Shown here piece after piece: positions 2,566 through 31,317 of a DNA stretch of 43,313 nucleotides (position 1 is the first letter of the stretch; every line of letters starts with the position of its first letter). The stretch comes from a virus. The DNA is taken from UHGV virus genome UHGV-0213395; one strand, 5' to 3'. A model generated the notes under the pieces. It did no database searches. It saw only the letters and a list, made by a program, of their open reading frames with translations, and was not told where the DNA came from. The translations under genes and the position numbers were made by a program.

Positions 2566-2975
2566 AGCCTCTTGGTGAATGCAATAAAGTTAATTGACAA
2601 TGGTCGTTTGGCCCATCCGTTTTCTACAATCAGCGGCCCCAGGCTAACCGATTGAACCTCGGCGCAGATGTCGTTACGCGAAAATGACTTACCTGCTTTA
2701 AACGCCGTGTTAAGTAAGTCTGCCATTTTATTGATTGGCGCGCTACCTTTCACCGATGCGTAGTTAATGTCTACCTGATAAATACCAGAGCGTTGCTCAG
2801 TGAAGAACAAATCCGCCTGCTCGGTATCTGCCAGTAGCATGTAACTCGCCAGATACGGCGTATCGGTTGACGTCGGCGCGTCGATGTTTTCAAGCGCAAC
2901 CTTGATGCCGTTGGCGGTTCCGAAGGCTACCAGCGGAACATCGAACGCTTTTGTTAAGTCCTCAAAGTAGCCCAT
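2562..2975 (-). CDS. tail terminator / tail completion protein candidate (137 aa)
   Basis: Position immediately upstream of major tail gene; 4-nt overlap with neighbours. Positional call. Confidence 0.45.
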   Translation of the reverse strand: MGYFEDLTKAFDVPLVAFGTANGIKVALENIDAPTSTDTPYLASYMLLADTEQADLFFTEQRSGIYQVDINYASVKGSAPINKMADLLNTAFKAGKSFSRNDICAEVQSVSLGPLIVENGWAKRPLSINFIAFTKRL

Positions 2976-3475
2976 TATTTATACTTCCTCGCTTCTTCTT
3001 CGAGCAGTTTATTGAATCGCTGAACGTTAACCCGGACAACACCTTGCGGAGCCTGAAGGGAATATCCGTCTGTGGTTGTTCTGCTGGGCGCTTTCGGCCT
3101 CAATGGGCCAACAAATTTAGAGCCTAAGTTAGAAGGACGCTTAGGGCCATGGAAGCCGGTAGCGTAACCCCCGAACTCTATAACTTCCGCATACGGCAGA
3201 TTATTTGTCAGGGTGAACTCGCTCCAGTCGGGTAAACCAGACACGGTAGAAACCATGGCACTTATTGCGTTCGCCCCGCTAGGGTCAGTACCGCGGCTTG
3301 TACCGGAAGCGGGGGTACTGCCAGAGGCCATCCAGTTCATTCGGAACCGGCCTGTATCTACCGGACTCGCCTTTATAATAGCGGAAAACAGCTTGATAGA
3401 CACCTGACGCATCACCTTCTCAGGGTTCTTCTTCGCCTTTTCCACGAACTTAGAGACATCAAGCGCGAAACTCAT
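2975..3475 (-). CDS. HK97 gp10-like tail component (166 aa)
   Basis: Contains DTGRFR...LPYAEVIEFG resembling the HK97 gp10 family signature; coupled to neighbours. Confidence 0.5.
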   Translation of the reverse strand: MSFALDVSKFVEKAKKNPEKVMRQVSIKLFSAIIKASPVDTGRFRMNWMASGSTPASGTSRGTDPSGANAISAMVSTVSGLPDWSEFTLTNNLPYAEVIEFGGYATGFHGPKRPSNLGSKFVGPLRPKAPSRTTTDGYSLQAPQGVVRVNVQRFNKLLEEEARKYK

Positions 3476-14348: not shown

Positions 14349-14493
14349 ATCGCATTCGGATATTTGTTATCGCGGTCCTGCACCACGGCGACCATGTTAC
14401 CACGTTGCACCAGGCAGAAGTGACGCTGTTGCTCGCCGTTGTAACGGCGCCAGATTGCTTCTTCGATTGCTGCGTTGATGTCGCTGAACATTA

Positions 14494-14574
14494 GTATCTA
14501 CCCCACAGAAAACCGACCAATAGCCCAATGAAGTAACTAAGACCAACCAGACTTATAACAACCTCAAGACTCAT
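14494..14574 (-). CDS. 26-aa hydrophobic peptide (possible small membrane protein)
   Basis: MSLEVVISLVGLSYFIGLLVGFLWGRY; purine-rich SD upstream; TAATG coupling to next small ORF. Confidence 0.2.
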
Positions 14575-26380: not shown

Positions 26381-26580
26381 TTCAAGTAAATGAAATGCCC
26401 ACAGATAAAGATTTTGTGATGATATGGCGCTGGGGCGGTTATATCCATTCGGAATCGTTTACGTTCCTGAACGGCACGATGGTGCGATACAACCATGTGG
26501 AGGATGAATTCGAACCCGTTGATATGAATGATTTCGAGAACATAGTCCGTATTGCGAAATTTTATTTGACACCTGAATAG
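26377..26580 (+). CDS. hypothetical protein (67 aa)
   Basis: ATGA overlap with nuclease stop; the GAGGAGGA SD lies inside the nuclease C-terminal codons. Confidence 0.5.
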   Translation: MIQVNEMPTDKDFVMIWRWGGYIHSESFTFLNGTMVRYNHVEDEFEPVDMNDFENIVRIAKFYLTPE

Positions 26581-26594
26581 TTAGCTATTATAGT
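26566..26594 (+). promoter_or_regulatory. promoter TTGACA-N17-TATAGT with operator-like palindrome (second copy)
   Basis: TTGACACCTGAATAGTTAGCTATTATAGT; drives the SSB-like gene at 26648. Confidence 0.5.
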
Positions 26595-27333: not shown

Positions 27334-27489
27334 ATGTTTTTCTGTAAGCACGTATACCGATATATGAAACCGCTTCCGTGGTACGCGGATGAGTACCGCG
27401 CCGGGTACAGGCATGTGTGGATTTGCCGTGATTGTATGAAAATAAGACTCAGCGAAACGAAGGCACTGGATTTAAGGAAAAAGAAATGA
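27334..27489 (+). CDS. small Cys-containing protein (51 aa), coupled to DNA polymerase
   Basis: AGGGT SD; MFFCKH...ICRDCM; ATGA overlap with polymerase start. Confidence 0.3.
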   Translation: MFFCKHVYRYMKPLPWYADEYRAGYRHVWICRDCMKIRLSETKALDLRKKK

Positions 27490-29666
27490 GCTACTTATAC
27501 CTGGACTTTGAAACATTCTCCGAAGCCGATTTAAAGAAAGTCGGCTCCTACGCTTACGCCGAACACCCGACTACCGAAGTGCTTATCTGCACATATGCTT
27601 TTGACGACGAGCCTGTGCGGGTATGGGATTGCACCGACGGCAGCGACATGCCGGGTGATTTGCACCGCGCACTGCGCCGCCTGGTTAAGCCGAACAGTCG
27701 TATTAAGATGGTGTGGCACAACGGCTCAATGTTCGACAGGCTCATCATGAAACACTGCTGGGGCTTTGATATTCCCGTAAGCAACACCATTGATACGATG
27801 ATTTGGGCGTTTCGTCACGCGCTGCCGGGTTCACTTGATGCGCTGTGCGAAGTGCTGGGCGTGTCTGCAGACAACGCGAAAGATAAACGCGGCAAGGCTC
27901 TGATTAAGCGTTTCTCTAAACCGACGCCGAAGAACTACAAAATCCGCCGCTACACCGCAGAAACTCACCCTGACGAGTGGGCGATGTTCATCAGGTACGC
28001 CGTGAGCGACATCACTGCGATGCGTGAAGTCTTCCATAAGCTGCCGCGTTGGGGTAACTCCGAGTTCGAAGACCGTGTACTGGAACTGGACCAGTTGATT
28101 AACGACCGTGGGTTTAAGGTTGATGTGACGCTGGCGGAAGCCGCGATTGAAGCCGTGGAAAAACACAAGGCCCAGCTACAGGAAGAAGCACAGCGCAAAT
28201 ACGGCGGCTCGCTTACTGGTAAAGACTTCCTGCCGATTCTGCGTGAACTTGCACCAGCGCACCGCATCCACAACGCGCAGAAGTCTACGCTTAACGACCT
28301 GTTGGCGGATGATGATTTACCGGACGACGCACGCACGATTATCGAAATGCGCCTCGGGGCCGCGTCCACAGCGTCAACGAAATATAACCCGCTGCTGTTA
28401 GGGCGCTCGTCGGACGACCGCCGTCGTGGTTGCATTCAGTACGGCGGAGCCAAGCGTACATTACGATTTGCCGGTAAAGGATTTCAGCCGCAGAACCTCG
28501 CGCGTGGGTACTATCACGATGATGAACTGGATAAAGGTATTTCAGCGTTACTTAAGGGCCGCGCGCATCGCCGTTTCGATGTCGCTAAGCTAACGGCATC
28601 GACGGTGCGTAGCTGCATTATCCCGGAAGCCGGAAAAAAGTTTGTCGTCGCCGATTACTCTAACGTTGAAGGTCGGGGGCTTGCGTGGCTGGCAGGCGAA
28701 GAAACCGCGCTAGATACGTTCCGCGCCGGGCTGGACATTTACTGTGTAACCGCGGGTAAGATGTTCGGCATGGAGCCGGATTACATTAAGAAGGAACGCA
28801 AAGACTTGCGCCAGATTGGTAAAGCCTGCGAGCTTGGCCTCGGCTACGCTGGTGGTGTTGGCGCTTTCGTTCAGTTTGCTAAGAACCTCGGACTTGACCT
28901 TGTTGATATGTCAAAAACAATGGACGGTACTTTCCCGGACCACATCTGGGCGGCTACTGCACGCGGCTATGAATGGGCACGTATTCAGGAAGCCAAGCGA
29001 CCGCCGCGACCCGGGGAGAAGGATGACCGACCATCGTATATTCTTGATAAGAAAGTGTGGCGTACCTGTGACGCTATCAAGCGTATGTGGCGAGAGTCAC
29101 ACCCTGAAACAGTAGCTTTCTGGCGAGATATTGAAGACGCAGCTATGGCCGCTATCCGCAATCCAGGTAAAGAGTTCACCGCGGGGCCTAGGGGGGTTAA
29201 GTTTTCGCGCAACGTAGAGACAGACAACAACGGCAACAAAGTCGCCGGCTGGTGGTTGCGCATGACGTTGCCGTCGGGTCGCGTTATGTCTTATCCGGGC
29301 GTCGGGTTAAGCGTGTCGAAAGAAACAGACGAAGATGGAAAAGTGTCTACTAACGTACGCATCAAGTACCAGGGGGAGAACCAGTTAACCCGTCAGTGGG
29401 GCTTCCAGTACACCTACTCTGGTAAACTCGTGGAAAACTGTACTCAGGCGCTGTGCCGTGATTTGCTGGCCAATGCACTGCTGAACGTTGAAGCAAACGG
29501 CTATCCTATTGTGCTTCACGTACACGACGAAATTATCTGCGAAACACCAGATACGCCAGAATACAATGTTGCAGAGCTTGAGCGGTTGATGTGCGAATTA
29601 CCGGAGTGGGCGGAGGGGTTCCCTCTTGTAGCGGAAGGTGCGGAGATGAAGCGTTATGCCAAGTAA
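27486..29666 (+). CDS. family A DNA polymerase with N-terminal 3'-5' exonuclease domain (726 aa)
   Basis: Exo motif YLDFETFS; Pol A motif A VVADYSNVEGR, motif B RKDLRQIGKACELGLGYAGG, motif C VLHVHDEIICE. Start moved to ATG 27486 (AAGGAAAAAG SD). Confidence 0.85.
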   Translation: MSYLYLDFETFSEADLKKVGSYAYAEHPTTEVLICTYAFDDEPVRVWDCTDGSDMPGDLHRALRRLVKPNSRIKMVWHNGSMFDRLIMKHCWGFDIPVSNTIDTMIWAFRHALPGSLDALCEVLGVSADNAKDKRGKALIKRFSKPTPKNYKIRRYTAETHPDEWAMFIRYAVSDITAMREVFHKLPRWGNSEFEDRVLELDQLINDRGFKVDVTLAEAAIEAVEKHKAQLQEEAQRKYGGSLTGKDFLPILRELAPAHRIHNAQKSTLNDLLADDDLPDDARTIIEMRLGAASTASTKYNPLLLGRSSDDRRRGCIQYGGAKRTLRFAGKGFQPQNLARGYYHDDELDKGISALLKGRAHRRFDVAKLTASTVRSCIIPEAGKKFVVADYSNVEGRGLAWLAGEETALDTFRAGLDIYCVTAGKMFGMEPDYIKKERKDLRQIGKACELGLGYAGGVGAFVQFAKNLGLDLVDMSKTMDGTFPDHIWAATARGYEWARIQEAKRPPRPGEKDDRPSYILDKKVWRTCDAIKRMWRESHPETVAFWRDIEDAAMAAIRNPGKEFTAGPRGVKFSRNVETDNNGNKVAGWWLRMTLPSGRVMSYPGVGLSVSKETDEDGKVSTNVRIKYQGENQLTRQWGFQYTYSGKLVENCTQALCRDLLANALLNVEANGYPIVLHVHDEIICETPDTPEYNVAELERLMCELPEWAEGFPLVAEGAEMKRYAK

Positions 29667-29787
29667 ACTGATTATCGCGGTACTGGCGGGATTTGCCGCC
29701 GGTGTCTACTGTCACGAGGGACAATACGGCATGATGGTTGCCATATTGGGCATGTTCATCGCAATTTATATGTGGGTGCTGGAATGA
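29656..29787 (+). CDS. small membrane protein (43 aa)
   Basis: ATG overlaps 3' end of polymerase gene; hydrophobic IIAVLAGFAAGV ... VAILGMFIAIYMWVL. Confidence 0.3.
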   Translation: MPSKLIIAVLAGFAAGVYCHEGQYGMMVAILGMFIAIYMWVLE

Positions 29788-29873
29788 AAATTTACTGGTT
29801 TTATGAAGACGACTGCCGAATCTGCCCGCGCTGCGGGATTGAGCATACGAAACGTGAGGGGTGCGTATTATGA
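29784..29873 (+). CDS. 29-aa zinc-ribbon-like peptide
   Basis: CRICPRC ... EGC cysteine pattern; ATGA coupling on both sides. Confidence 0.25.
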   Translation: MKIYWFYEDDCRICPRCGIEHTKREGCVL

Positions 29874-30022
29874 CAATGTTTGTATTTAGGACCATAGTAA
29901 CCATGCTCGCACTGTTACTCGGTGCGGGAATAGCTGCTATGTTCTGTTACGGCCTGTTCTTTCAGTTTGCCGGTGTTGCCATTCTAGGCTGGGTTTTCCT
30001 TACCTGGATGCTGCGGTCATGA
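29870..30022 (+). CDS. small membrane protein (50 aa, 2 predicted TM segments)
   Basis: Hydrophobic throughout; ATGA overlap with VRR-NUC start. Confidence 0.3.
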   Translation: MTMFVFRTIVTMLALLLGAGIAAMFCYGLFFQFAGVAILGWVFLTWMLRS

Positions 30023-30351
30023 CTAAAGAGGGCCGCATCCAGAAATACGCAAAAGAGCGATTCGAGGCCATTGGTGGCCTCGTTCGTAAACTTTCCTACG
30101 AAGGACGTTCAGGCGCTCCTGACCTGCTGGCAATTCTACCCGGCGGCATCGTCTGGTTCGTCGAGGTGAAGAAAGACGAAAACACTAAGCCAGACCCGCA
30201 CCAGCTACGGGAACACGAGCGTATACGTAAACGTGGCGCAAATGTTTTTGTCGTTGGTTCGATAAAACAGATTGACACCCTAATAGCAGACTATTATAGT
30301 AAGCACATACCCCAACAATATAAGGAATTTAGAAATGAAACACGAATATGA
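30019..30351 (+). CDS. VRR-NUC domain nuclease (110 aa)
   Basis: PDLLAI ... VEVKK PD-(D/E)XK core in a ~100 aa protein. Confidence 0.65.
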   Translation: MTKEGRIQKYAKERFEAIGGLVRKLSYEGRSGAPDLLAILPGGIVWFVEVKKDENTKPDPHQLREHERIRKRGANVFVVGSIKQIDTLIADYYSKHIPQQYKEFRNETRI

Positions 30352-30526
30352 CCGCAAACCAGCACGTGACATCGTACCAGGCGACATGATTTTCAACGTT
30401 AAGACCCGTCGTCCTGTTGCCGTTGATACGGTGTTCGTCGAGTCGAACGGTAAACTGGTTATCGAAGATGTAACGGGTAACGTTACGGCGTTCGGGCGTA
30501 AAGAGCTGGTGCTGGTGGCAAAATGA
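30335..30526 (+). CDS. hypothetical protein (63 aa)
   Basis: Intact ORF overlapping neighbours. Confidence 0.45.
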   Translation: MKHEYDRKPARDIVPGDMIFNVKTRRPVAVDTVFVESNGKLVIEDVTGNVTAFGRKELVLVAK

Positions 30527-31317
30527 ACTATTACAACGAATGGGATAAAGGCGCAGCCGCGTGGCTGCGTGAATTAATAAAACAGGGTCACATACCTTTT
30601 GGAGTTGTAGATGAAAGAAGCATTACCGAAGTTAGACCAGAAGACCTTGACGGGTTCACCCAGTGTCATTTTTTCGCGGGTATCGGCGGCTGGCCTCTCG
30701 CGCTCAGACTTGCGGGAGTTTCTGAAGATACGCCTATATGGACGGGAAGTCCGCCTTGCCAACCGTTTAGCACGGCAGGAAAGCAACTCGGACAGTTCGA
30801 CCAGAGACACCTCGCACCTGTGCTCCTCGACCTCATCAGCGAGTGCCACCCTCCAGTCATCTTTGGGGAGCAGGTTGCGGCAGCAATTGCAAAATCGTGG
30901 ATGTGCGATTTACAAACTCACCTGGAAAGAGAAGACTACGCCGTCGGGTTTGCCGTACTCCCAGCTTGTAGCGTCGGCGCACCGCACAAAAGGAATCGAT
31001 TGTTCTTCGGAGCGCAGCAACTGGCCAACACCGTGTGCGAACAACTCGGCGGGAGCAGGCCATCAGGGCAGGAACGGGGGCCACAATCTGCAAACAGAGG
31101 CATCTCTGACACAGCCAATCCGCCTAACGGGTTCTGGTCAGATGCTGACTGGCTCGGATGCCGGGATGGAAAATTCAGGCCAGTTGAACCCAGCACATTC
31201 CCGCTGGCTAATGGGGTACCCGCCAGAGTGGGACGATTGCGCGGTTACGGCAATGCTATCGTCCCGCAAGTAGCCGCTGAATTTATAAAGGCGTTCATGG
31301 GGGCCGTAAATGAGTAA
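30523..31317 (+). CDS. DNA cytosine-5 methyltransferase, apparently frameshifted (motifs split between two frames)
   Basis: Frame 1: motif I FAGIGGW, motif [10 protein letters not shown], motif [13 protein letters not shown]. The +1 frame (ORF 30611..31273) carries WPTP and [18 protein letters not shown] (motif IX-like). Confidence 0.55.

What the first reader, a model, noticed from the sequence alone, without database searches (positions are those of the whole stretch)
29656..30022. Chain of three tiny coupled ORFs (membrane, zinc-ribbon, membrane) between polymerase and VRR-NUC nuclease
Three overlapping-stop/start minigenes of 43, 29 and 50 codons fill the gap. Two are strongly hydrophobic and one has a CxxC...C zinc-ribbon-like pattern. 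Membrane micro-proteins in a replication operon are unexpected; they may tether replication to the membrane, or act in host takeover or superinfection exclusion.
Basis: seen in the sequence. Interest (0 to 1): 0.45.

Follow-up and report, generated by a model that had tools for sequence, protein, structure and literature searches.

The report
Three coupled micro-genes between polymerase and nuclease
The three tiny genes are real and under selection: the middle one is a zinc-knuckle-like micro-protein kept by almost every phage of this subfamily, while the two hydrophobic ones are optional, swappable extras of unknown function, so they are unlikely to be needed for DNA replication.

Summary
The window is a Kagunavirus (Guernseyvirinae) coliphage. 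o1 (29656-29787, 43 aa), o2 (29784-29873, 29 aa) and o3 (29870-30022, 50 aa) tile the gap between the family A DNA polymerase and the VRR-NUC nuclease, with an 11-nt overlap and then three ATGA overlaps.

All three evolve as protein-coding genes. pN/pS is 0.17-0.24, like the flanking polymerase and nuclease, against 0.86-2.2 in shifted frames, and no relative has a stop codon.

They are already annotated as hypothetical proteins (phrog_10404, phrog_38225, phrog_14925) and have no homologue outside the subfamily.

New here:
- o2 is core, present in about 444 of 452 related genomes and often unannotated. It has a CPxCG knuckle and C-x2-C-x3-H-x5-C spacing.
- o1 (about 222 genomes) and o3 (about 121) are dispensable hydrophobic accessories.
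- The gap is a cassette slot. Relatives carry other tiny hydrophobic peptides, a 64-aa Cys-rich protein, HNH endonucleases or nothing, always plugged into the same two ribosome-binding "sockets".

An essential membrane tether for replication is disfavoured. An accessory role at the cell envelope (superinfection exclusion, host takeover or counter-defence) is the best guess but is untested. Interest is modest.

The parts
26566..26594 (+). Sigma-70-like promoter (TTGACA-17-TATAGT, 11 of 12) upstream of the gp2.5-like SSB gene. Probable start of the transcription unit SSB / 51-aa ORF / polymerase / o1 / o2 / o3 / VRR-NUC.
   Evidence: consensus scan only; function is inferred. No terminator-like site on the + strand lies between it and 30351.
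27486..29666 (+). Family A DNA polymerase. The start is taken as ATG 27486, as annotated in relatives. Its last 11 nt overlap o1.
   Evidence: NCBIfam DNA polymerase I / exonuclease-polymerase hits; annotated as DNA polymerase in relatives.
29642..29645 (+). SD1: GGAG, 10 nt upstream of the o1 ATG and inside the polymerase 3' end. This is the first 'socket'. It serves o1, or the o1N::o2 fusion where o1 is deleted.
   Evidence: Read from the sequence. A GGAG/GAGG is kept at this position in 53 loci, including those where an HNH gene precedes o1 instead of the polymerase.
29656..29787 (+). o1: 43-aa hydrophobic micro-protein (phrog_10404). It has two hydrophobic segments (5-19 and 24-42) around a near-invariant polar loop, YCHEGQYG. 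Accessory gene.
   Evidence: pN/pS 0.24, 42 unique sequences; conservation; Hessa dG -2.3 for residues 26-42; about 222 of about 452 genomes; no homologue outside the subfamily.
29784..29873 (+). o2: 29-aa Cys/His micro-protein (phrog_38225) with a CPRCG knuckle. Candidate ligands are C14, C17, H21 and C27, with C11 as a spare. Core gene of Guernseyvirinae. It has no canonical SD of its own and starts in the ATGA overlap with o1's stop.
   Evidence: pN/pS 0.17, 47 unique sequences; about 444 of about 452 genomes; per-residue conservation; motif found only on Guernseyvirinae-sized contigs; best, non-significant PDB matches are zinc-ribbon knuckles.
29856..29861 (+). SD2: GAGGGG inside o2 codons E25-G26, 8 nt upstream of the o3 ATG. 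This is the second 'socket', used by whichever gene follows o2.
   Evidence: GAG in 42 of 42 and GGG in 41 of 42 unique sequences, while neighbouring synonymous sites vary freely (R24 uses 4 codons, C27 uses 2, G18 uses 4); all alternative cassettes start at the same ATGA.
29870..30022 (+). o3: 50-aa hydrophobic micro-protein (phrog_14925). Accessory gene. Its stop overlaps the VRR-NUC start (ATGA), and VRR-NUC has no SD of its own in this arrangement.
   Evidence: pN/pS 0.24, 23 unique sequences; conservation; about 121 of about 452 genomes; no outside homologues; AF2 gives one continuous helix 2-49, pLDDT 93; dG -1.4 for residues 8-26.
30019..30351 (+). VRR-NUC-like nuclease, annotated in relatives as a Holliday junction resolvase (110 aa). 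It is the downstream anchor of the slot.
   Evidence: phrog_93 endonuclease E 1.6e-32; phrog_5702 Holliday junction resolvase E 3.6e-19. (Pfam VRR_NUC E 0.0024, below the curated cut-off). Annotations in relatives.

Best explanation
Shown: the 367 bp hold three real protein-coding micro-genes. They lie inside one transcription unit (gp2.5-like SSB, a 51-aa ORF, polymerase, o1, o2, o3, VRR-NUC) of a Kagunavirus.

Translation is organised around two fixed ribosome-binding 'sockets'.
- SD1 plus an ATG that overlaps the polymerase stop.
- SD2 (GAGGGG), embedded in the last codons of o2, followed by an ATGA.
- o1 and o3 occupy the sockets.
- o2 and VRR-NUC lack a canonical SD and start in ATGA overlaps, so they are most likely read by ribosomes finishing o1 and o3. 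This step is inferred.

o2 is a subfamily-wide core gene. o1 and o3 are dispensable cassettes that are deleted or replaced while the sockets are preserved.
- Deletion of o1 fuses its first 7 codons in frame to o2.
- Without o3, VRR-NUC or another cassette takes over SD2.

Inferred function:
- o2 is a small metal-binding (CCHC-like, CPxCG) knuckle. It probably acts in the cytoplasm with the replication and recombination machinery or on nucleic acid.
- o1 and o3 insert into the inner membrane during early or middle infection. They act as accessory envelope factors, most likely excluding superinfecting phage DNA, or otherwise manipulating or counter-defending the host envelope. They do not act as an essential replication tether.
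For: Coding status:
- pN/pS is 0.24, 0.17 and 0.24 for o1, o2 and o3, against 0.22 (polymerase C-terminus) and 0.19 (VRR-NUC). Shifted frames give 0.86-2.2. No stops appear in any unique sequence.

Coupling geometry:
- The overlaps -11, -4, -4, -4 are conserved in all loci with the window's architecture.
- The synonymous sites of SD2 are invariant in 42/42 and 41/42 sequences while their neighbours vary.
- SD1 is kept even when an HNH gene precedes o1.

Core versus accessory status:
- Among about 452 related genomes, o2 is in about 444, o1 in about 222 and o3 in about 121.
- o2 is present in 54 of 54 fetched loci.
- o1 loss is an exact in-frame fusion, MLSKLII+YYF..., at an 8-bp microhomology.

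Cassette slot:
- The position after o2 holds o3, a 25-aa or a 23-aa single-helix peptide, a 64-aa Cys-rich acidic protein (phrog_25645), a 165-aa HNH endonuclease, or nothing.
- This holds in phages whose polymerase C-termini are 97-99% identical to the window.

Membrane character:
- GRAVY is +1.3 and +1.6. Hessa dG is below 0 for o1 residues 26-42 and o3 residues 8-26.
- o3 is predicted to be all-helical with pLDDT 93.
- In the close relative Bas71, only the o1 and o3 homologues and the two holins are strongly hydrophobic among about 50 small proteins.

o2 ligands:
- C14 39/39, C17 38/39, C27 39/39, H21 37/39, C11 34/39. At least four of the five are present in every sequence.
Against: - No experiment or homology links any of the three to a function. 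Pfam, NCBIfam, PADLOC, PDB and Rfam give nothing significant.
- AF2 could not fold o2 (pLDDT 59), so metal binding and the knuckle fold are inferred from the pattern alone.
- The second hydrophobic segments of o1 and o3 are short and marginal. AF2 draws o3 as one 48-residue helix. Topology is therefore unresolved.
- Translational coupling is inferred from geometry and SD content, not measured.
- Exclusion or host takeover is chosen by elimination and by analogy with T4 Imm/Sp. A patchy distribution fits several other accessory roles equally well.
- Some Guernseyvirinae already carry an Imm-like gene elsewhere (PMC9409062), which makes a second exclusion function less necessary.
Confidence: 0.45

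Rival explanations
1. Membrane tether for replication or recombination. o1 and/or o3 would anchor the polymerase, VRR-NUC or replicating DNA to the inner membrane, as phi29 p16.7 and p1 do, possibly with o2 as the DNA- or protein-binding adaptor.
For: - Location inside the replication operon, translationally coupled to the polymerase and to VRR-NUC.
- An unrelated high-GC phage group (L055-L058) also has a 69-aa hydrophobic ORF ATGA-coupled directly upstream of its VRR-NUC.
Against: - o1 is present in only about 49%, and o3 in about 27%, of related genomes. Many Jerseyviruses keep only o2 in the slot.
- o1 and o3 have essentially no soluble domain to bind DNA or protein.
- o2 exists without any membrane partner.
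- The 69-aa ORF in the distant group is itself present in only 4 of 7 loci.
Confidence: 0.1
2. Lysis-timing or membrane-depolarising peptides. o1 and o3 would act like antiholins or holin modulators, or like type I toxin-type peptides that collapse the proton-motive force to shut off the host.
For: - They are small, very hydrophobic, helical peptides.
- The alternative cassettes in the same slot are 23-25-aa single-helix peptides resembling small toxins.
Against: - The lysis cassette (two holins, endolysin, spanins) lies elsewhere in the genome.
- There is no charged C-terminal tail typical of holins.
- There is no match to holin PHROGs.
- Expression alongside the replication genes would be early for a lysis function.
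Confidence: 0.12
3. Mainly a dosage device. The chain of minigenes would exist to meter ribosomes from the polymerase to VRR-NUC through successive termination-reinitiation steps, and the peptide sequences themselves would be unimportant.
For: - ATGA junctions are conserved.
- o2 and VRR-NUC lack their own SD.
- SD2 is under extra synonymous constraint.
Against: - Purifying selection on the amino-acid sequences is as strong as on the polymerase and VRR-NUC.
- Specific residues are invariant: the o1 loop YCHEGQYG, the o2 Cys/His set, and o3 C26-Y27.
- Coupling probably operates in addition to a protein-level function, not instead of one.
Confidence: 0.05
4. One functional unit. o1, o2 and o3 would assemble into a membrane-anchored zinc-finger complex, or would be the split remains of a single TM-Zn-TM protein.
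For: - They are adjacent, coupled and co-transcribed.
- Each hydrophobic peptide carries a single conserved Cys next to aromatic residues.
- Natural frameshift variants fuse o1'-o2 or o2-o3.
Against: - The three occur independently. All of o2 alone, o1+o2, o2+o3 and o1+o2+o3 exist.
- The three frames are distinct and stably maintained.
- No single-ORF homologue was found.
- o1 and o3 are not paralogues.
Confidence: 0.1
5. Not genes: chance ORFs in a spacer.
For: - They are very short.
- o2 falls below most gene callers' length limit and is unannotated in many records.
Against: - pN/pS is 0.17-0.24 and there are no stops across dozens of diverged sequences.
- The start and stop geometry and the SD sites are conserved.
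- Deletions preserve the reading frame.
Confidence: 0.02

Closest known systems
PHROG families phrog_10404 (o1), phrog_38225 (o2) and phrog_14925 (o3); 'hypothetical protein' CDSs such as Bas71_0041/0040/0039
   Same: Full-length matches with E 8e-32, 1.2e-21 and 2.7e-28. The coordinates and junctions are identical to those annotated in close relatives.
   Different: These families have no assigned function, so membership says only that the ORFs have been called before. o2 is missing from many annotations.
T7 genes 5.3-5.9, the cluster of small accessory genes between DNA polymerase (gene 5) and exonuclease (gene 6). Stated from my own knowledge.
   Same: The positional logic is the same. A gap between the replicative polymerase and a recombination nuclease is filled with tiny, tightly packed, largely dispensable genes, with an HNH-type gene among them.
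   Different: There is no sequence relationship. The T7 proteins are soluble inhibitors of host proteins (H-NS, RNA polymerase, RecBCD). Here two of the three are hydrophobic, and the targets are unknown.
Small superinfection-exclusion membrane proteins of lytic phages: T4 Imm (83 aa) and Sp. Cited in PMC9409062.
   Same: They are small inner-membrane proteins made early by a lytic phage. They are dispensable for growth and patchily distributed.
   Different: There is no homology: o1 and o3 hit only their own PHROGs, not phrog_1039. They are half the size. The exclusion phenotype is untested.
phi29 p16.7 and p1, membrane-associated organisers of phage DNA replication. Stated from my own knowledge.
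   Same: They are small membrane proteins encoded with replication genes.
   Different: p16.7 has a soluble dimerisation and DNA-binding domain and is a conserved part of its phage group. o1 and o3 are almost wholly hydrophobic and optional.
CPxCG zinc-ribbon knuckles and the retroviral-type CCHC zinc knuckle (C-x2-C-x4-H-x4-C); small phage zinc-finger regulators such as Mu Com and P2 Ogr. Stated from my own knowledge.
   Same: - o2 has a CPRCG knuckle.
- o2 has the same 14-residue Cys-to-Cys span (C-x2-C-x3-H-x5-C).
- Its best, non-significant PDB matches are zinc-ribbon knuckles: COX5B, Nop10, RpoM, S27ae.
   Different: - The His is displaced by one residue.
- There is no second CxxC.
- No Pfam zinc-finger model reaches its threshold.
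- The fold was not predicted with confidence.
- At 29 aa, o2 is far smaller than Com or Ogr.

Membership tests
Classical zinc ribbon (o2) | Two CxxC (or CxxH) knuckles on two beta-hairpins that together supply four ligands | tested here: not met
   There is only one well-formed knuckle, C14-P-R-C17-G. C11 forms an overlapping CxxC but is R or F in 5 of 39 unique sequences. The remaining candidate ligands are the single residues H21 and C27.
Classical zinc ribbon (o2) | Significant match to a curated zinc-ribbon profile | tested here: not met
   The best Pfam hit is A2L_zn_ribbon, E 0.022, 14.9 bits against a cut-off of 22.9. NCBIfam gives nothing. The best PDB sequence hits have E 0.27 or worse.
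Generic Cys/His metal-binding knuckle (o2) | At least four conserved Cys/His residues at fixed spacing | tested here: met
   C14 39/39, C17 38/39, C27 39/39, H21 37/39, C11 34/39. Every sequence keeps at least 4 of the 5.
Generic Cys/His metal-binding knuckle (o2) | Folded metal-bound structure, or metal binding itself | tested here: inconclusive
   The AF2 model has mean pLDDT 59 and no secondary structure. Metal content cannot be tested with these tools.
Holin / pinholin (o1, o3) | Small protein with at least one transmembrane helix | tested here: met
   Hessa dG is -2.3 for o1 residues 26-42 and -1.4 for o3 residues 8-26.
Holin / pinholin (o1, o3) | Encoded in the lysis cassette next to endolysin and spanins | tested here: not met
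   In the near-identical relative Bas71, the two holins, the endolysin and the spanins lie elsewhere (Bas71_0070-0072 and 0008-0009). o1 and o3 lie in the replication operon.
Holin / pinholin (o1, o3) | Charged, hydrophilic C-terminal tail, and membership of a holin sequence family | tested here: not met
   o1 ends ...WVLE and o3 ends ...MLRS. Their only PHROG hits are their own families of unknown function.
T4 Imm-type superinfection immunity proteins (phrog_1039) | Sequence membership of the family | tested here: not met
   There is no hit to phrog_1039 at E up to 1.
T4 Imm-type superinfection immunity proteins (phrog_1039) | Blocks DNA entry of superinfecting phage | not testable with these tools
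   This needs plating or DNA-injection assays on cells expressing o1 or o3.
phi29 p16.7/p1-type membrane replication organisers | Membrane anchor plus a soluble DNA- or protein-binding or multimerisation domain | tested here: not met
   o1 (43 aa) and o3 (50 aa) are hydrophobic almost end to end. The only polar stretch is the 8-residue loop of o1.
phi29 p16.7/p1-type membrane replication organisers | Conserved component of the phage group's replication module | tested here: not met
   o1 is in about 222, and o3 in about 121, of about 452 related genomes.
Known anti-phage defence or counter-defence proteins (PADLOC-DB) | Match to a defence-system protein model | tested here: not met
   There are no hits for o1, o2, o3 or the alternative cassettes.

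The most novel reading that the evidence does not exclude
The polymerase / VRR-NUC gap of Guernseyvirinae would be a dedicated plug-in socket: two fixed ribosome-binding sites and ATGA junctions. Unrelated membrane micro-peptides (o1, o3, the 23- and 25-aa peptides) would be swapped through it as weapons in phage-phage competition or against membrane-acting host defences. o2 would be a previously unrecognised 29-aa CCHC-type zinc-knuckle cofactor of the replication and recombination machinery, core to the subfamily yet invisible to most gene callers.
Probability: 0.2. Interest if true: 0.55.

Novelty: new member of a known kind. Interest (0 to 1): 0.3.

Why it matters
If the inference holds, there are three practical consequences.

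1. o2 is a universally conserved 29-aa gene in a phage subfamily used for therapy and synthetic biology (Kagunavirus, Jerseyvirus). It is missing from many annotations and from protein databases that drop ORFs under 30 aa. It would be an easy target for a first functional study of a core micro-protein.

2. o1, o3 and their alternative cassettes are a natural presence/absence series among otherwise near-identical phages, some of which are in the public BASEL collection. That series is ideal for testing what tiny phage membrane peptides do.

3. The conserved socket shows where small payload genes could be inserted in these phages with predictable, coupled expression.

None of this changes current concepts. 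It is an ordinary but cleanly resolved case of phage accessory micro-genes.

Tried and rejected
- **o1 and o3 as paralogues.** BLASTP gives E 0.47 and hhalign gives probability 0.7%. Rejected.
- **Antisense 123-aa ORF 29533-29904.** It carries stops in 13 of 17 sequences compared. Rejected.
- **Alternative +1-frame 28-aa ORF 29803-29889.** pN/pS is 2.2 and its length varies. Rejected.
- **Structured RNA.** No Rfam hit at E up to 1 in 29300-30400.
- **Database searches for function.** There was no significant hit for any of the three in Pfam, NCBIfam or PDB, or for o1 to o3 and the alternative cassettes in PADLOC. The weak EMC6, PufX and beta-dystroglycan hits are hydrophobic-composition matches below threshold.
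- **Distant homologues.**
  - The word-based search of 5.8 billion proteins for o1 and o3 found only 40-45 kb Guernseyvirinae contigs.
  - The HMM profile of o1 against 1.84 billion representatives found 4 hits, all in the family.
  - o2 was too short for the protein search. A padded query found only 11 proteins, because 29-aa ORFs are rarely called.
  - A degenerate DNA scan of IMG/VR for the o2 motif hit 44 contigs, all Guernseyvirinae-sized.
- **Structure prediction.** AF2 on o2 gave pLDDT 59, which is unusable, so no fold search was run. AF2 on o3 gave a single long helix, which is uninformative for a fold search.
- **Literature.** No paper in the held library discusses these ORFs. Papers on Kagunavirus and Jerseyvirus genomes and the BASEL collection do not mention them. 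One search was badly designed and returned nothing useful.
- **A recurrent small hydrophobic ORF next to VRR-NUC.** It was seen in one other phage lineage only. That is too few cases to distinguish from chance.


Full report
**What the window is**

The region 29000-30700 matches 451 phage records. The best are Escherichia phages Bas73 (98.8%), Bas74 and NTEC3 (97%), genus Kagunavirus, subfamily Guernseyvirinae. The more distant ones are mostly Salmonella Jerseyviruses.

All three fall in PHROG families of unknown function: phrog_10404, phrog_38225 and phrog_14925.

**Check of the observation**

- o1 runs 29656-29787 (43 codons) and overlaps the polymerase stop by 11 nt.
- o2 runs 29784-29873 (29 codons).
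- o3 runs 29870-30022 (50 codons).
- VRR-NUC starts at 30019.
- The last three junctions are ATGA overlaps.
- The upstream gene is a family A DNA polymerase.
- The downstream gene matches phage endonuclease and Holliday-junction-resolvase PHROGs. It matches Pfam VRR_NUC only weakly.
- o1 and o3 are strongly hydrophobic, with GRAVY +1.30 and +1.64. o2 is not.

**Are they genes?**

I fetched 70 loci from IMG/VR through the VRR-NUC protein, plus annotated GenBank relatives. Pairwise Nei-Gojobori counts gave the following:

| Region | Unique sequences | pN/pS |
|---|---|---|
| o1 | 42 | 0.24 |
| o2 | 47 | 0.17 |
| o3 | 23 | 0.24 |
| Polymerase C-terminus | 52 | 0.22 |
| VRR-NUC | 49 | 0.19 |

The two shifted frames of the same DNA gave 0.86-2.2. 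No sequence carries an in-frame stop.

The 123-codon antisense ORF across the region is interrupted in 13 of 17 sequences compared, 16 relatives plus the window itself. No Rfam family matches. The three minigenes are therefore real protein-coding genes under purifying selection.

**Anatomy of expression**

Two near-consensus sigma-70-type promoters (TTGACA-17-TATAGT) lie at 26566-26594 and 30272-30300. No terminator-like site on the + strand lies between them. The likely unit is therefore gp2.5-like SSB, a 51-aa ORF, polymerase, o1, o2, o3 and VRR-NUC. This rests on a consensus scan only.

- o1 has a GGAG 10 nt upstream of its ATG.
- o3 has GAGGGG 8 nt upstream of its ATG.
- o2 and VRR-NUC have no canonical Shine-Dalgarno sequence and begin inside ATGA overlaps.

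The GAGGGG lies in o2 codons E25-G26. Its synonymous positions are invariant (GAG 42/42, GGG 41/42), while neighbouring codons vary freely. This indicates a second constraint as a ribosome-binding site.

The GGAG or GAGG before o1 is kept even where an HNH endonuclease gene, not the polymerase, precedes o1.

I read this as two fixed 'sockets', with o2 and VRR-NUC translated by coupling to o1 and o3. That reading is inferred, not measured.

**Core versus accessory**

tblastn against about 50,700 phage genomes gives full-length matches as follows:

| Gene | Records with a full-length match (of about 452 holding this region) |
|---|---|
| o2 | about 444 |
| o1 | about 222 |
| o3 | about 121 |

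Matches to o1 include 103 Escherichia and 11 Kagunavirus records, the same counts as in the whole set, but only 106 Salmonella records out of 331.

o2 is often unannotated. It is nearly absent from the large protein collection because it is shorter than most gene callers accept.

Among 54 loci the architectures are:
- o1-o2-o3;
- o1-o2, with o2 ending directly at or overlapping VRR-NUC;
- o2 alone;
- o2-o3;
- o1-o2-[64-aa Cys-rich acidic protein, phrog_25645], with or without o3;
- o1-o2-[25-aa or 23-aa single-helix peptide];
- o1-o2-[165-aa HNH endonuclease];
- HNH endonucleases inserted between the polymerase and o1.

Phages whose polymerase C-terminus is 97-99% identical to the window carry different cassettes. 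Turnover is therefore recent.

Loss of o1 is an exact in-frame fusion of its first seven codons to o2 (MLSKLII-YYF...). It occurs at an 8-bp repeat, TGATTATC, present in Jerseyvirus-type sequences. This keeps o2 on o1's initiation site.

Every cassette after o2 starts at the same ATGA.

**What the proteins look like**

*o2*
- It is highly conserved. C14, C17 and C27 are essentially invariant. H21 is present in 37 of 39 unique sequences and C11 in 34 of 39. Every sequence keeps at least four of the five.
- The motif is a CPRCG knuckle with spacing C-x2-C-x3-H-x5-C.
- The best PDB sequence matches are zinc-ribbon knuckles (COX5B, Nop10, RpoM), but none is significant.
- Pfam zinc-ribbon models do not reach threshold.
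- AlphaFold2 gave an unusable model, pLDDT 59.

*o1*
- It has hydrophobic segments at 5-19 and 24-42 around a near-invariant polar loop, YCHEGQYG.

*o3*
- It is uncharged from residue 8 to 48, except for K/Q32, and has an invariant C26-Y27.
- AF2 draws it as one helix from 2 to 49 with pLDDT 93.

*Membrane insertion and relatedness*
- With the Hessa scale, one segment in each of o1 and o3 is predicted to insert into the membrane. The second segment is short and marginal. Topology is therefore open.
- o1 and o3 are not detectably related to each other.
- Neither has a homologue outside Guernseyvirinae. This holds in a word-indexed search of 5.8 billion proteins and, for o1, in a full HMM scan of 1.84 billion cluster representatives.
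- The o2 motif occurs in IMG/VR only on 24-45 kb contigs, nearly all the ones already fetched through VRR-NUC.

**Interpretation**

An essential membrane tether for replication, as in phi29 p16.7, is disfavoured. The hydrophobic genes are optional, they lack any soluble domain, and the one conserved gene in the slot is the soluble o2.

Holin-type function is unlikely. The lysis cassette is elsewhere, and the holin hallmarks are absent.

A pure 'spacer for coupling' role is contradicted by amino-acid-level selection.

What remains is an accessory envelope function for o1 and o3: exclusion of superinfecting phage, host takeover, or counter-defence. For o2 what remains is a core cytoplasmic function, plausibly nucleic-acid or protein binding within the replication and recombination module.

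The closest functional analogies are T4 Imm/Sp for the membrane peptides, and the T7 gene 5.3-5.9 cluster for the positional logic of small accessory genes between polymerase and nuclease. Neither is a homologue.

No paper in the held library addresses these ORFs.

**Verdict**

The feature is a well-behaved example of phage accessory micro-genes plus one overlooked core micro-protein. It is already present in databases as 'hypothetical' and has no known function. It is worth a modest follow-up because the BASEL phages provide ready material. It is not surprising to a specialist.

**Side finding**

The neighbouring methyltransferase gene (30523-31317) contains a 220-codon ORF nested in its +1 frame (30611-31273).
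- This nested ORF stays open in all relatives examined. It also stays open in Klebsiella, Pseudomonas, Vibrio, Burkholderia and Rhodobacter phages and in a 147-kb Salmonella phage, while the third frame is full of stops.
- Frame A carries C5-methyltransferase motifs I-VIII and X. Frame B carries a motif IX-like [16 protein letters not shown].
- It is therefore a known kind of arrangement. Different GenBank records annotate it inconsistently.

Noticed in passing
window 30523-31317 (+) and nested 30611-31273 (+): The C5-cytosine methyltransferase gene (264 aa, Pfam PF00145) contains a 220-codon ORF entirely nested in its +1 frame. Both frames stay open in 15 Guernseyvirinae relatives and in Klebsiella, Pseudomonas, Vibrio, Burkholderia and Rhodobacter phages and a 147-kb Salmonella phage, while the third frame has 13-25 stops. 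[quoted passage not shown] This matches the published alpha/beta architecture of M.EcoHK31I (PMC2836561). GenBank records annotate frame A, frame B or both..
   Followed up: yes
window 27334-27489 (+): A 51-aa Cys/His-containing ORF (C4-x-H6 ... C31-x2-C34) lies immediately upstream of the polymerase. Its stop overlaps the polymerase ATG 27486 (ATGA). pN/pS is 0.13 in 8 unique sequences, and it has no PHROG or Pfam family. The polymerase is thus flanked on both sides by coupled Cys/His micro-proteins..
   Followed up: partly
window 26566-26594 and 30272-30300 (+): There are two near-consensus sigma-70-type promoters with identical hexamers (TTGACA-17-TATAGT, 11 of 12). The second lies inside the 3' end of the VRR-NUC gene, just upstream of the 63-aa ORF 30335-30526..
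   Followed up: no
L002, L022, L047 (between polymerase and o1); L016, L025 (between o2 and VRR-NUC): HNH or endonuclease VII-type homing endonuclease genes (231, 171 and 165 aa) are inserted at the borders of the slot in relatives, including Bas73, the window's closest relative. Each insertion preserves the SD and the ATG or ATGA junction of the next gene..
   Followed up: partly
L029, L053 (25 aa); L044 (23 aa); L005, L006, L024, L034, L036, L041, L048, L049 (64 aa): Alternative cassettes occupy the o3 position. Two are unrelated single-helix peptides (MTMLTTIMIIVAVFLGVAVLSKVTD and MITIIAVLVALLLGAAIFSRIIG). One is a 64-aa acidic protein with a CxxCxH motif (phrog_25645, unknown function)..
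   Followed up: partly
L055-L058, about 2795-3004 (+): In an unrelated high-GC phage group (VRR-NUC 44% identical), a 69-aa hydrophobic ORF is ATGA-coupled directly upstream of VRR-NUC in 4 of 7 loci. A roughly 34-aa hydrophobic ORF may follow the nuclease. This could be a recurrent association or a coincidence..
   Followed up: partly
proteins P0149-P0157, P0076, P0083, P0160 (public assemblies): Several independent frameshift variants fuse a truncated o1 to o2, or o2 to o3. The o2 frame is stop-free across o1, because NTN codons cannot create stops in that offset. The variants may be natural o1 knock-outs or assembly errors..
   Followed up: partly
window 14491-14574 (-): A 27-aa ATG-initiated ORF, MSLEVVISLVGLSYFIGLLVGFLWGRY, has a predicted membrane-inserting segment (dG -1.25) in the region of small early genes. 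Besides o1 and o3, it is one of only three other such ORFs in the whole window..
   Followed up: no
window 27432 versus 27486 (+): The mechanical ORF list starts the polymerase at TTG 27432 (744 aa). Relatives annotate ATG 27486 (726 aa), which forms an ATGA overlap with the preceding 51-aa ORF..
   Followed up: no
window 30335-30526 (+): A 63-aa ORF (phrog_4879, unknown function) overlaps the VRR-NUC 3' end by 17 nt and is ATGA-coupled to the methyltransferase. The methyltransferase in turn overlaps the SNF2-type helicase start by 8 nt. The whole operon is a chain of overlapping or coupled genes..
   Followed up: no
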